A stretch of 64,000 nt of DNA, taken from Octopus vulgaris (taxonomy: Eukaryota). Location of the stretch: contig OX597814.1 in assembly GCA_951406725.2 (NCBI GenBank), positions 125,116,001-125,180,000 of the forward strand, written 5' to 3'. A program made the translations under genes and the position numbers. Shown here one piece after another: positions 8,871 to 30,279 of the stretch (the first letter of the stretch is position 1; every line of letters begins with the position of its first letter). The notes beneath the pieces are model-generated. The model saw only the letters and a program-made list of their open reading frames with translations. It had not been told where the DNA came from and did no database searches.

Positions 8871-10836
8871 CAGTACTCCTAAACGCGATTTATCTGGTCA
8901 TAACGCCCCTCTTTGTCCTTACCATAATAATAACTGCCCACCCCCATCACCCTAGCCACCACTGTCATTACAATCACAAAATTCCTCCACCCCAACTATT
9001 TTTTTTTTCAGTGACTTCATTATTATCTCTATCTCCACTACCGAAACTGCTTGAAGTAGCAGTATAGATACACTTTACATAACCATGATCGGGTTTGGGA
9101 CATAATCCTTTCAACAATCCAATTATATATGTCGTCAATCCTTCTTTATTCCTATATCTGTTGGTCACCTGCATCGTTATGTTTAGTATTTTTAATATTG
9201 TACACTCATATAATCTCACCCGCTTCATTTGTTCTACTTATCTTCCTCACTTACTCTGCCCCTTTCTTAATTTACTTACGTGACTTATATTTTACCAAAA
9301 TTTCCTTTCATATTTAGTTTTTTTCCGCTTTGTTTCTTTTCCCCCCTGTTTTCCTGTTTTTTTTATAATAAACTATCATTTTATGAATTCTTTCAATATC
9401 TTTACTTTCTCATGTACCCCATACCTTTCACCCATCTTTTTAAGTTATTTTTTTCTAATACTTTTCTCCCAATATTTTTTAACACTTTTCTCAACTTTTA
9501 CCATACAAGTGTAATGCTCCTCAAAATGTTATTCATATCCCTACCAATAGTCTTATTTTTGCCGTTTTCCTCATTTTGTCTTTATTCTTATCTTATTTCA
9601 TTTATTCCATTTCCGACCATCATTTAGAATTTTGAATTATTGACCCTAACTCCGAAATAGTCCCTCAACCGTTATAATTTTGTTTCGTTTTTATTTTCAA
9701 CACTTCCTTCAGTCTCCCCTAATCTTCCTTCATCTCTAAAAATTTTTATATTATTTCATACTTTTGCTATTTCGTCTTTCCTTCTAACTCAGTACTCCTG
9801 CCACTTTAACTGTCATGTTATATCCGCTTTTACTTTCATTTTCTAATGATTACTTCAAATAATTTATCATCTATTACTCTTATAGTGAATTCTCCTAATT
9901 GTATTCTTTAAACACCTGTTCACTTTTCTTTCTATATTCCTTTTCCTTTTTCCCTTACTTGTTTCCCTTTTTCTTTTCTTTCTTTAACTTTTATTTCTCT
10001 CTTCCTTCATTATTTTTCTTCTTACTTTTCCTTCTTTTTATCTTTTTAACTCTTATTATTTCCGTTTTTCTTTTCTCCTCTTCCTTCTGTTTTACTCCTT
10101 CTTTTTTTTACCTTTATCAAACTTTCTTCCCACCTTCACACTCAATGTCTAAAAAAAGTATAATTATATATAAATGAGTTAACCTTGTCAATTTTCTGGT
10201 CTTACCTTGCCCTAAGATCTTGTGTGCCTACAGGTGAAACTCAAGGTAGTAAGAGACTGGCTCGACCGAAATAGAATACCATTAATCTATTCCATGGTAC
10301 TGAGTATACTTTTCCGCAGTTAATACTGATAACACGAGTAAAATGTATGGCAAAGTGGAAACAAACAAACAAAAAAGTAATGTAAAACATGTGAAAACAT
10401 GTGCCTGAGAAGTGTAGAAATATATAGCGAAAAACAGCAAGCAAAGATATGTTCAACGAAGCTTAACACGTCAAAGAAAGAGGTCATTATGTGTGTGTCA
10501 GTGTGCGTGTGGGTTCGTGTGTTTTTGCGCGTGTATGTATATGTATATGTATATGTATATGTATATATGTATATGTATATATATATATATATATATATAT
10601 ATATATATATATATATATATATATATATATTTGAGTAATTGAATGAATTATCTTATTAAGGATAATTCGAAAGATAACCGATACCTGGGTAGCAAATTCA
10701 CATCAGAAAGAACACGGTTGAAGCTATGACCCTAGGGCATAGACTACGTGTCTTCGTGTGGAAATTTGTATGTTTATTTTAAAATTATAAGTATATGAAA
10801 GAATGGAGTTGAACGACTAGTTAACAAATATCCTTT

Positions 10837-10921
10837 ATTCTCGACATATGTTTCGAAGGCTGCATATTCCTAATTCCGAAGGAATAAGGAGTACATTATG
10901 CAGATTTTTCATCAGAAAAAT
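10837..10921 (-). ncRNA. Type I minimal hammerhead ribozyme
   Basis: Minus strand: attttt-CTGATGA-aaaatctgcata..tatgcagccttc-GAAA-catatg-TC-gagaat. Confidence 0.7.
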
Positions 10922-11062
10922 CAAGGAAACTTATGTCGACATCAAAATGCACAAAAAACTTTTAGCTGACCGCTCTCAAGGTAATAATTATCGCCATGGG
11001 CTCCTTGAGAGCGGTCAGCTAAAGGTTTTTTGTGCATTTTGATGTCGACATAAGTTTCCTTG

Positions 11063-11120
11063 ATTTTCCTGATGAAAAATCTGCATAAAATATGCAGCCT
11101 TCGAAACATATGTCGAGAAT
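11063..11120 (+). ncRNA. Type I minimal hammerhead ribozyme
   Basis: attttc-CTGATGA-aaaatctgcataaaatatgcagccttc-GAAA-catatg-TC-gagaat; stem I pairs, palindromic stem III, GUC cleavage triplet. Confidence 0.78.
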
Positions 11121-26613: not shown

Positions 26614-27252
26614 ATGTTGGGTGGGGAAGTGTTTCTCCTACAGAAACACTTCCCCACCCAACATAAGTACTACACTATCCTAAATAAGAACACTATTAGA
26701 CTCTCCTACTCTACCACGCCCAACCTAGCCAGGAACCTAGCCAACAACAATGTGAAAAAACTTAACATATCTACTTTCTCCGGGGCCCATCCAACGTCCG
26801 ATAGCAATTGCAACTGCCATGATAAAACCACCTGCCCCCTCAACAACAACTGCCTACAGAGGGACCTAGTATATAAATGCGAGGTAAGATCAGGCCTTGA
26901 CGATAAAAGTAAATCCTACATTGGAATGACGTCAAACAGCTTTAAGACCCGCTGGTATGCACATACACACTCGTTCCGGCGACAGGATAAATCCAACCAA
27001 ACTACCCTCGCCGCCCACATCTGGTACCTTAAAAGGAACTCAATCCCCTTCAAGACCAAGTGGAAACTACTACAGAAGGCGCGCTCGTACACAGGAGGAC
27101 ATACCTGCTGTGACCTATGCATATCAGAGAGCCTAGAGATCTTGTTCGCCAAAGGCCCTCTCCTTAACAAATTTTCAGAACACTCCCCAAATTGCATGCA
27201 TAAGAAGTATGCGAACTACAAGAACTATAGACCTACCCGGCAACCTGATTGA
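26614..27252 (+). CDS. Penelope-like GIY-YIG endonuclease domain with Cys-rich linker (212 aa from the first ATG; no RT)
   Basis: KHFP..NTIRLSYS..CNC(x5)CPL(x3)C..LVYKCEV..SYIGMT..FKTRW..H..SF..IWYLK..CDLCISE..LLN; the conserved Y, YIG, R, E and N residues are present and there are no stops. Confidence 0.85.
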   Translation: MLGGEVFLLQKHFPTQHKYYTILNKNTIRLSYSTTPNLARNLANNNVKKLNISTFSGAHPTSDSNCNCHDKTTCPLNNNCLQRDLVYKCEVRSGLDDKSKSYIGMTSNSFKTRWYAHTHSFRRQDKSNQTTLAAHIWYLKRNSIPFKTKWKLLQKARSYTGGHTCCDLCISESLEILFAKGPLLNKFSEHSPNCMHKKYANYKNYRPTRQPD

Positions 27253-30026
27253 TGACAACCCCCCCCTACAACCCCCCCCTACAACCCCCCCCCAACCCCA
27301 CTGTTCCCCTAGCACCACCGATTACCTTTTCTCCTAAGACCTTTCACATATTATATGTGCACGCTTGTATATGTGTATCGTATGTATGTATGTATATATG
27401 TATAGAAATGCATGGGTACAGTAGGAATATACGCATGTATTATGTGTGTGTGTGTGTATGTAAGCATGTAAAAAAATATATATGTATATATATTTGCATA
27501 TATATATATATATATATATATATATATATATATATATGTATGTGCTTGTATGTGTGTGTGTGTGTATATGTGTATATGTGTTTGTATGTATATGTGTATA
27601 TATGTATATGCATATGTATGTGTAAATGTATGTGCTTATGTATGTGTATGTATGTATAAAATATTATATAATTAGGGCTTAGGAAAATAAAATAAATTAC
27701 TTTGCCACATACTAAACTTTCTAGAAATAGCAGCCAATAAAGTTTTTTAGCCTCTTCCACTACTTAGAGAATTTTTTTCCCTCTAACATTGTTTACTCAA
27801 AATAATAATGGTCCCTTTACATACTGAACACTTGATGAAATTGATTAATAACTAATTAACTTTACCCTCCCTTGTTGATATATATATACATATGTGTATG
27901 TGTACATGTATGTATATATATATATATATATATATGTGTGTGTGTATGTGTGTATGTATGTATTTGTATATGTGTGTGTGTATACGTATGTGTGCGTGTG
28001 TGTGTGTATGTATGTGTATGTATACTTGTATATGTATATGCATGAATGTATATATATGTGTGTGTATATGTGTATTATGTATGTATTTATATAGATATGT
28101 AGTTTATATATATATATGTATGTATATGCATCTGTCTGTGTGTGTGTATGTGTATATATGTGTATCATTTTTGCGTATGTATACATGTATATGTGTATAT
28201 GTATGTGTGTGTGTGTGTATATATATATATATATATATATGTGTATATATATGTATATATATATATATGCATACGTATGTGTATGTACATGTATATATGT
28301 ATGTGTGTATATGTATATATGTTTATATATGTGAGTATGTAGTGATATAAGTATATGCATGTGTATGTATGGGTATGTGTATCAGTGTATATGTATATAT
28401 GTATGTGTGTGTGTATGTATATGTATGTATATGTGTATATATGTATGTGTATATGTGTATATATATATATATATATATATGTGTATATGTGTGTATGTAT
28501 GTGTATGTGTATGTATGTGTATATATATCTATATATGTATATATATATATATATATATATATATATATATATATATATATATATATGAGTGCGTGTGTGT
28601 ATGTATGCATATATGTATGTATGCATGTATATGTGTATGTATATATATGTGTGTAAGTGTGTGCATATATGTATTTGTAAGTATGTGTGCGCGTATGAGT
28701 ATGTATGTATGCTTGCACACGTGTATATATATATGTGTGTGTGTGTATATATATGGATGCGCGTGCGTGTGTGCACGTGCATGGGTACGCATGTATATGT
28801 GTATGTGCGTGTATGCGTATACGTGTATGTATGTATGTGTGTGCGTAGATTTGTATATGTATGTGTGAGTGTGTATATATATATATATATATATATACAT
28901 ATATATAGATGGGTGTGTGTATGCGTATAAATGCATGTAAGTATGGATGTATGGATGTATGTATGTATGTATACGTATGTATGTGTGTATGTGTGTATGT
29001 ATGTATATATGTGTGTATATATGTTTGTGTATGTATATATATGTGTATGTATGTGTGTGTATATGTATGTGTGTATGTGTATGTATGTGTATATATATAT
29101 ATATATATATATATATATATATATATATATATATAGGTATGTATCTGTATGTAGGAGTATATATGTGTGTGTGTGTATGTATATGCGGGTATATATATAT
29201 ATATGTATATTTATTGGTGTATATGTATAGACTAGCCTCCTAAAGTGTAGACACGAATCTGTAGGTACGAGTACGTATGTGTATATACGTGAACGTATGT
29301 AGATGTTTGTATGTATGAATATAACGCGTGCGTACGTGTATGTGTATGAGTGTACGAATGGGTGAATGTACGTGCTAATGAGTGTGCGTGCGGGAATGAG
29401 TACTTGCCTTCTAGTAGACAGACAAATGGACATGCAGCCATTGCCAGGATTCTTAGCCCTAGCGATCAAAGATAACAAAAGTAATAAATGAAGATAATAA
29501 AATTAAAATTAGGGAATGGGCCTGTATTGGATTGTATATATATATATGTATATGTATATTTGTATGTATGTATGTGTGTATGTGTAGGTATGTATATATA
29601 TATATATATATATATATATATATATATGTGTGTGTATATATATGTGTATGTATGTATGTGTGTGTAGATACGTATACATGTGTGTATAGGTATAAGTGAG
29701 AATCTCCTTATTTACCTATAACTCTATCCCCCCTTTTTTTATATATATATTTTTTTATATATATATTTTATATATATATTTTTTTATATATATTTTTTAT
29801 ATTTTTTATTTTTTTATTTTTTTATTTTATTTTATTTTTTTATTTTTTATTTTTTTATTTTTTTTTAATTTTTTTATTTATCTATTCTTTCATCTAACTT
29901 ACCACTGACTCCTTGACCACTCCCCAAGTATGATATTTTGCGCTATGCCTACCCCCAAAAAGTCCCCCACCACCACTCCTTTAAACCTGCCTAAATGTAT
30001 AAATGCTAATACAATTCTTGTTAAAT

Positions 30027-30077
30027 AGCTTCCTGAAGATTTCTCTTGAATGAAACAGTACTAGTCCTGTAGAAGCT
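30027..30077 (+). ncRNA. Type I hammerhead ribozyme (right arm)
   Basis: agcttc-CTGAAGA-tttctcttgaat-GAAA-cag(tactagtc)ctg-TA-gaagct: perfect 6-bp stem I, 3-bp stem III, GUA cleavage triplet. Confidence 0.78.
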
Positions 30078-30279
30078 CCTTCTATATAATAAATATATAT
30101 ATATATATATATATATATATATGTATATACATATATATATATATATATATATATATATATATATATATATGTATATATATATATATATATATATATATAT
30201 ATGACATATATGTATATGTATATATATATATATATATATATATATATATATATATACACACACACATATATATATTATC

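What the first reader, a model, noticed from the sequence alone, without database searches (positions are those of the whole stretch)
10631..30094. Shared 'tail-out' insertion geometry in (TA)n across three unrelated hammerhead elements suggests two-ended priming on TA microsatellites
Seen in three elements with different sequences (10631-11151, 13931-14184, 23756-30094). Each has two inverted copies of the 3' region pointing outward, and both ends run into TA-type microsatellite. One arm extends further past the ribozyme than the other (by ~155, ~50 and ~70 nt). The shorter arms stop at AT-rich words that merge into the repeat (catatacttata|ta, gcaatt|atat, ataataaat|atat). Inference: both strands of a cleaved (TA)n target prime reverse transcription at internal AU-rich sites downstream of the ribozyme, and the two cDNAs are joined head-to-head. 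This would be a microsatellite-targeted, twin-priming-like mechanism.
Basis: inference. Interest (0 to 1): 0.75.

Follow-up and report, generated by a model that had tools for sequence, protein, structure and literature searches.

The report
Twin hairpins set Penelope start sites
These back-to-back inserts in TA repeats have a shape already described for Penelope-like jumping genes, but checking them showed that one group carries two matching RNA hairpins right where its copies end, which likely mark the two places where copying starts and would explain how both ends of a cut target get filled.

Summary
The geometry is real: three head-to-head insertions with near-identical arms (167/169, 65/66, 2767/2775), one arm longer by 155, about 51 and 69 nt, and 5 of 6 ends abutting (TA)n. 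E3 is a Hydra-clade Penelope-like element (PLE) with a canonical type I hammerhead. E1 has a PLE-type hammerhead. E2 has no detectable hammerhead.

The inverted copy, one-sided tail and (TA)n bias are published PLE traits. In-vitro extension of both strands from two internal starts is also published.

What I did not find in print: Hydra elements from metagenome contigs carry two covarying bulged hairpins about 60 nt apart, downstream of the ribozyme. 11 of 14 mapped 3' ends lie 2-9 nt before hairpin 1 or hairpin 2. E3's short end sits 7-8 nt before a hairpin-1 variant, and its 69-nt tail matches the spacing.

Simple fold-back cannot give E1 or E3, because the loop belongs to the tail-less arm. 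Two cDNAs primed from opposite target ends is the best reading, but it is inferred (about 0.55). Position appears to be set by the hairpin, not by the longest TA microhomology. Verdict: known architecture, with a new and testable cis-signal.

The parts
10631..10785 (-). E1 tail, 155 nt, on the left arm only; outer end abuts (TA)n 10576-10630
   Evidence: four contigs of run X16 also run into TA about here (table 7)
10786..10981 (-). E1 left arm
   Evidence: 167 of 169 identical to the right arm
10832..10926 (-). E1 left type I hammerhead motif with long stem II, cut predicted after 10843; G10.1 replaced by A in this copy
   Evidence: core search; family reads G at 10908 in about 99.9% of depth in all four runs; not hit by my strict descriptor
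10982..11002 (+). E1 central spacer, 21 nt, continuous with the tail-less right arm
   Evidence: loose ends of family contigs behind 10969-10981 read as the reverse complement of the spacer (X7 and X16)
11003..11171 (+). E1 right arm with hammerhead 11058-11125 (cut predicted after 11114); short end 57 nt after the cut, 4-nt TA microhomology
   Evidence: 19 contigs of run X4 run into (TA)n at the equivalent place 10786
13932..13982 (-). E2 tail, about 51 nt, two small hairpins; abuts (GA)n then a short TA run
13983..14184 (.). E2 arms 13983-14048 and 14119-14184 with a 70-nt spacer; no hammerhead detected; family and spacer polarity unknown
23756..23824 (-). E3 tail, 69 nt; outer end abuts (TA)n 23701-23755
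23797..23817 (-). E3 bulged hairpin 1: 4-bp outer stem, 2-nt bulge, 3-bp inner stem; the outer G-C pair of relatives is A-U here
23842..23892 (-). E3 left canonical type I hammerhead, cut predicted after 23848
23825..26611 (-). E3 left arm: inverted copy of the 3' region
   Evidence: 2767 of 2775 identical to the right arm
26612..26666 (.). 25-nt fold-back palindrome at the E3 centre (26612-26636 mirrors 26642-26666, 5-nt loop)
26635..27252 (+). 5'-truncated ORF end: Hydra-clade GIY-YIG region with CxCx5C, CxxC and CxH
27270..30094 (+). E3 right arm: 3' region, 64% microsatellite-like, with hammerhead 30027-30077 (cut predicted after 30071); short end 23 nt after the cut, abutting (TA)n

Best explanation
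E3 is an insertion of a Hydra-clade Penelope-like retroelement, E1 likely and E2 possibly of other Penelope-like families, and each was likely made by two cDNAs primed from the two ends of a cut (TA)n target and then joined head to head. Shown: the arms, tails and flanks; the Hydra protein motifs; the E3 hammerhead; two covarying bulged hairpins in Hydra leaders; and 3' ends clustering 2-9 nt before them. Inferred: (1) the GIY-YIG nicks both strands in (TA)n; (2) the protein binds the hairpins on uncleaved RNA and starts reverse transcription at a short TA-like word just 5' of each; (3) one target end uses site 1 and the other site 2, so the one-sided tail equals the hairpin spacing; (4) both cDNAs come from one source locus or RNA; (5) the cDNA ends are joined at the centre, in E3 after a 25-nt self-primed fold-back.
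For: The tail is on the arm that does not own the spacer in E1 and E3 (the ORF fragment). Fold-back of the tail-less cDNA cannot template the tail, and fold-back of the tailed cDNA would give the opposite spacer polarity. Both E1 ends recur in other copies (19 contigs at 10786 in X4, 4 near 10631 in X16; only 24 of 273 rows shown). Both E1 arms share a substitution absent from about 99.9% of family depth (10908/11076). Hydra ends: 11 of 14 lie 2-9 nt before a hairpin, 8 of 11 after collapsing by family. Hairpin spacing is 57-83 nt in 14 of 19 neighbouring pairs; the E3 tail is 69 nt. L009 is a head-to-head copy with one arm ending before hairpin 1 and the other before hairpin 2. Precedent: purified PAc nicks and extends both strands from two internal starts that define the tail (PMC11167929).
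Against: Only three elements, chosen for the trait. No empty site, no whole genome, no biochemistry. E2 has no hammerhead and unknown polarity. E1 and E2 have no Hydra-type hairpin, so the hairpin rule covers E3 only. E3's hairpin 2 is predicted, not seen. Only 1 of 14 truncated Hydra copies in metagenome contigs is head to head (short-read assembly is biased against such repeats). In that copy the tail is on the other arm and the arms are only 90% identical, so it may be two events. E3's centre shows real self-priming. PAc initiation was reported as not homologous to the cut DNA. Arm identity could also come from later gene conversion. The 2-9 nt window was chosen after seeing the data (with a 30-nt window p is 1e-4 to 2e-3).
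Confidence: 0.55

Rival explanations
1. Self-priming: one cDNA, or an antisense template, folds back to make a hairpin intermediate, and the endonuclease resolves it, leaving the tail on one side.
For: Proposed from palindromes at inverted junctions (PMC3846280, passages). The tail is ascribed to endonuclease resolution in PMC8557442. E3 has a 25-nt fold-back at its centre. Near-identical arms follow naturally.
Against: Spacer polarity in E1 and E3 needs the tail to be removed afterwards, exactly at the site where other copies also end (L055, L076), and in E3 with only 2 nt of microhomology. The clustering of ends before RNA-sense bulged hairpins, with G-U pairs in the stem, fits RT start sites.
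Confidence: 0.25
2. A palindromic master copy is transcribed and reinserted as a unit by ordinary one-ended priming, or two separate insertions were later homogenised.
For: L009's arms are 90% identical. Different Hydra families do stack in one TA run (L005, L012).
Against: No contig of four runs covers E1's centre junction (depth 0 at 10982-11003 against thousands next to it), so it is not an amplified junction; the tool warns that a hole proves nothing for a single locus. No TA lies between the arms.
Confidence: 0.12
3. The pattern is not specific: TA tracts in this genome collect many kinds of inverted elements, and E2 is a decayed non-PLE repeat or MITE.
For: 12440-12671 is a roughly symmetric palindromic element with TA on both sides and no hammerhead. 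E2 has no ribozyme.
Against: This cannot apply to E3 (PLE protein, hammerhead) and fits E1 poorly. E2's arms are asymmetric, starting about 51 nt inside its left end.
Confidence: 0.08

Closest known systems
Hydra clade of C-terminal endonuclease PLEs (Craig et al. 2021, PMC8557442; passages, section 11 and supplement parts 2, 52, 53 read)
   Same: CxCx5C linker, CxxC and CxH motifs, canonical type I hammerhead in the 3' region, (TA)n insertion in nearly all families, inverted 5'-truncated copy, one-sided tail.
   Different: The tail here is 69 nt, not 30-40. The ORF-to-ribozyme distance is 2.8 kb of mostly microsatellite. The twin bulged hairpins can be seen in the published consensus sequences (two at the start of Hydra-1_Ajap, one at the ends of Hydra-2_Ajap and Hydra-2_Amil), but the main text has no 'hairpin', 'stem-loop' or 'bulge'.
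PAc, Poseidon PLE of Anolis (Frangieh et al. 2024, PMC11167929; parts 1-2 of 4 and passages read)
   Same: Both strands nicked and extended, AT-rich target, two internal RT starts defining the tail, ribozyme cleavage not needed, predicted dimer.
   Different: Starts lie in an AC-rich stem-loop inside the ORF and are not homologous to the target. The passages I read do not link two-strand extension to inverted insertions.
Adineta vaga Penelope elements (Arkhipova et al. 2013, PMC3846280; passages read)
   Same: Head-to-head is the commonest inverted form; palindromes at the junction; optional tail; long captured spacers before the 3' repeat.
   Different: Explained there by self-priming on an antisense template.
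L1 twin priming (recalled, not read here)
   Same: Two target ends prime on one RNA and the cDNAs are joined.
   Different: L1 inverts without duplicating; here the same 3' region is copied twice and both starts are at fixed sites.

Membership tests
Hydra-clade PLE (E3) | C-terminal GIY-YIG with CxCx5C linker | tested here: met
   Translation against the definition; relatives of about 700 aa match at their C-terminus
Hydra-clade PLE (E3) | [quoted passage not shown] | tested here: met
   C164/C167, E170, N183, C192, H194 invariant or nearly so in alignment A1
Hydra-clade PLE (E3) | RWK and DKT motifs in the RT, and RT phylogeny | not testable with these tools
   The window copy lacks the RT. 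Full-length relatives show RW and ADKT. E3 is a long branch in my GIY-YIG tree
Hydra-clade PLE (E3) | Canonical type I hammerhead near the 3' end | tested here: met
   The only descriptor hits in the window; designed fold -7.3 against MFE -8.5 kcal/mol; cleavage not assayed
Hydra-clade PLE (E3) | Insertion into (TA)n | tested here: met
   Both ends abut TA runs; empty site not seen
PLE (E1) | Type I hammerhead with short palindromic helix III | tested here: met
   Core, 11-bp stem I with mismatches and palindromic loop by inspection; G10.1 is present in the family but not in this copy
PLE (E1) | Linked RT-GIY-YIG ORF | not testable with these tools
   No ORF in the copy and no genome held
Hammerhead-bearing element (E2) | CUGANGA / GAAA / UH core with three stems | tested here: not met
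   No hit with strict or relaxed descriptor
Naiad PLE (E2, considered because Naiads lack hammerheads and target TA) | Similarity to a Naiad 3' end | tested here: inconclusive
   Six 12-nt words from E1 and E2 not found in the supplement text; line breaks and divergence make this a weak test
L1-type twin priming | Inversion without duplication; sense part starts next to the second priming site | tested here: not met
   Arms duplicate the same region; definition recalled

The most novel reading that the evidence does not exclude
Hydra-clade Penelope elements carry two bulged RNA hairpins about 60 nt apart that dock two reverse transcriptase units, each starting at a TA-like word a few bases 5' of its hairpin and each primed by one strand of a doubly nicked (TA)n target. 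One RNA thus yields a head-to-head insertion whose one-sided tail equals the hairpin spacing: a hard-wired, duplicating twin-priming mechanism that explains the PLE tail and inversion together.
Probability: 0.35. Interest if true: 0.78.

Novelty: new variant of a known kind. Interest (0 to 1): 0.55.

Why it matters
How Penelope-like elements make inverted copies and a one-sided tail is named as an open question in PMC8557442, and the one in-vitro study leaves the later steps unvalidated. A conserved, covarying RNA signal that predicts both 3' ends gives a direct handle: move or mutate a hairpin and see whether the start site and tail length follow. It also offers a simple way to find the true ends of Hydra elements. 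The geometry alone adds nothing new.

Tried and rejected
No whole genome is held, so there was no genome-wide census or empty-site test.

Rfam found no hammerhead. Pfam gave no family above cut-off for the ORF end or two full-length relatives. The word-index protein search found nothing; the HMMER search did. Viral contigs held no relative. An E2 pattern had 0 matches in prokaryote genomes. No RNA holder was listed for E1, which is no evidence on expression.

Rejected as evidence:
- The 10785 T>A variant (34-51% of depth) first looked like a TA junction, but the neighbouring change at 10784 is rare, so it is likely a plain substitution.
- The '7 of 9' family collapse printed was my mis-tally; it is 8 of 11.
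- Zero depth at E1's centre is a coverage hole and is used only to say the junction is not amplified.
- Global folding of the E3 end is not more stable than shuffles (z -0.62), so the hairpin rests on covariation, not energy.
- In one search, 12 of 28 loci had TA within 200 nt of the cut against 0 of 122 control windows, but at least three of the 12 (L053, L056, L064) are element-internal words.

An assembly fold-back artefact for E3 was considered and judged unlikely: the two flanks differ, one arm has extra sequence, and both ends fit the family rule.
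Full report
Observation. Self-comparison and alignment confirm three head-to-head insertions. E1 has arms 10786-10981 and 11003-11171 (167 of 169 identical, one 27-nt deletion), a 21-nt spacer and a 155-nt tail. E2 has 66-nt arms (65 identical), a 70-nt spacer and a tail of about 51 nt. E3 has 2.8-kb arms (2767 of 2775), a 69-nt tail, and a centre made of a 25-nt fold-back plus an ORF end. Five of six ends abut pure TA; E2's left end meets (GA)n first. 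Other repeats in the window have TA within 15 nt at 9 of 106 ends; those ends are BLAST-defined and often truncated, and the three elements were chosen for the trait. A roughly symmetric palindrome at 12440-12671 also has TA on both sides and no ribozyme, so TA flanks plus inverted arms are not specific.

Ribozymes. A canonical type I descriptor hits only E3's two copies in the whole window. Their layout matches the Hydra hammerheads tabulated in the supplement of PMC8557442. E1 has the core, a long stem I and a palindromic helix III of the kind described for PLEs (PMC4209133, passages). It misses my descriptor because both arms have A at 10.1 and an imperfect stem II; the family has G there in about 99.9% of depth. 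E2 fails even a descriptor loose enough to hit 71 of 167 other tiles.

Identity. The E3 ORF end has CxCx5C, CxxC and CxH, the Hydra definition. HMMER finds 5717 relatives at E up to 0.001, and the roughly 700-aa ones carry the Hydra RT motifs. [quoted passage not shown] PMC3846280 calls head-to-head the most frequent inverted form. The geometry is therefore known. The host was not established by any search; the short repeats reminded me of cephalopod DNA, from memory only.

E1 family. Contigs of four runs from three coded organisms laid 804-2097 records each on 10631-11003. Of the 24 loose-end rows shown (273 in all), one has 19 contigs running into (TA)n at 10786, the short end; one has 14 contigs with a TA-rich end at 10795; and one has 4 contigs reaching TA about 11 nt before 10642, the long end. 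Three rows show that the family continues past 10969-10981 with the reverse complement of the spacer, so the spacer belongs to the tail-less arm. The same holds in E3, where the spacer is the ORF end. Both E1 arms share a substitution that the family lacks, pointing to one source template or later conversion.

The hairpins. A scan of metagenome contigs gave 77 Hydra-like loci. Of 80 matches to a sequence-only anchor (GCTC, 7-26 nt, GAGCA), 39 had a hammerhead core upstream and 33 remained after removing near-copies. In these 33 the first inner pair forms in 32 (17 C-G, 15 U-A; shuffle mean 24.3, 0 of 10000 reach it), the second in 27 and the third in 20, but only with a 2-nt bulge on the 3' side; other registers give 0-5 of 33 for the first pair. 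On a hand-picked 28-row alignment 99.4% of cells pair and 4 of 7 pairs change on both sides, well above slid controls. A tree of 23 proteins needs at least three switches of the first pair, so the independent events are few. A TAT or TGT word ends 4-6 nt before the hairpin in 23 of 33, against 1-10 in other windows. The structure occurs 78 times in 420 kb against 8-18 in five resampled controls. 14 of 19 neighbouring pairs are 57-83 nt apart; the other five are overlapping matches. The second hairpin lies about 40-70 nt before the ORF start. E3's tail carries a variant with an A-U outer pair, 31 nt after the cut.

Ends. Comparing copies within families gave 28 rows. I dropped 10 short matches ending in or at the ribozyme core, 3 TA-only matches and 1 reciprocal. 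Of the 14 left, 4 end 3-9 nt before hairpin 1, 7 end 2-6 nt before hairpin 2, and 3 fall elsewhere. Collapsed by family and class this is 8 of 11 (p 2e-5 with the post-hoc window, 2e-3 with a wider one). Five of the 11 were flagged as running into (TA)n or (TACA)n, and microhomology ranges from 0 to 8 nt. E3's short end lies 7-8 nt before hairpin 1, passing over a longer TA word, and its long end is 61 nt past the hairpin start, where hairpin 2 would be expected. L009 is a head-to-head copy with one end of each class, but its arms are 90% identical and the tail is on the longer-running arm; it is 1 of 14 truncated copies with enough flank.

Mechanism. In a fold-back the loop belongs to the first cDNA, and the second arm can hold nothing the first lacks. 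In E1 and E3 the loop belongs to the tail-less arm, so the tailed arm needed another template, most simply RNA primed from the other target end. PAc extends both strands from two internal starts in vitro (PMC11167929), which makes this plausible. Self-priming with later trimming at the same site remains possible, and E3's centre shows that short self-priming occurs. I put two-ended priming at 0.55 and the full twin-hairpin, two-RT model at 0.35. The hairpin rule is shown for Hydra only; E1 and E2 lack the motif.

Is it in print? Nine library searches and term searches in PMC8557442, PMC11167929, PMC3846280, PMC4209133, PMC7229834 and bioRxiv 2026.07.22.740005 showed no description of these hairpins and no explicit two-ended model for PLE inversions. 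The library lacks most subscription papers, including Arkhipova 2006, and Repbase notes. Supplementary figures, and the supplements of PAc and of the preprint, were not seen and may bear on this.

Verdict. Real and mostly known. Interest 0.55.

Noticed in passing
window 27253-29880 and its mirror 24040-26611: About 2.6 kb, 64% alternating microsatellite, lies between the E3 stop codon and the ribozyme (2819 nt, against roughly 80-600 in metagenome relatives) and was copied into both arms, so the element moved microsatellite-rich DNA.
   Followed up: partly
window 12440-12671: Roughly symmetric palindromic element with TA runs on both sides and no hammerhead; resembles a Tc1/mariner-type MITE (resemblance recalled, not tested).
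   Followed up: partly
window 7254-7445 (+): Decayed second Hydra-type GIY-YIG fragment (tblastn E 6e-6), next to inverted repeats 6335-6495 and 7050-7201 (83%).
   Followed up: no
window 30812-31825 (-) and 61543-62895 (-): Broken ORFs that read like RT and thumb regions of other Penelope-like elements (by eye; no Pfam hit); no inverted arms seen.
   Followed up: no
window 11004-11125: In E1 a 14-nt stretch just upstream of stem I is almost exactly complementary to the GAAAC and helix III region, a possible alternative fold that could switch the ribozyme off.
   Followed up: no
window 12106-12419, 21508-21828, 23173-23357, 56924-57231: A dispersed short repeat holds a GCTC...GAGC palindrome resembling the Hydra hairpin ends; relation untested.
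   Followed up: no
L005 2873-3082 and L012 1170-1466: Two different Hydra families sit tail to tail across a single (TA)10-12 run, showing repeated use of one tract.
   Followed up: partly
L011 393-476, L016 2994-3030, L044 2483-2490: A TA run lies directly before a hairpin near the 5' start of a copy, suggesting 5' junctions also fall at the start sites.
   Followed up: partly
window 5305-5449 and 9747-9921: Old inverted repeat pair (73%) 4.3 kb apart.
   Followed up: no
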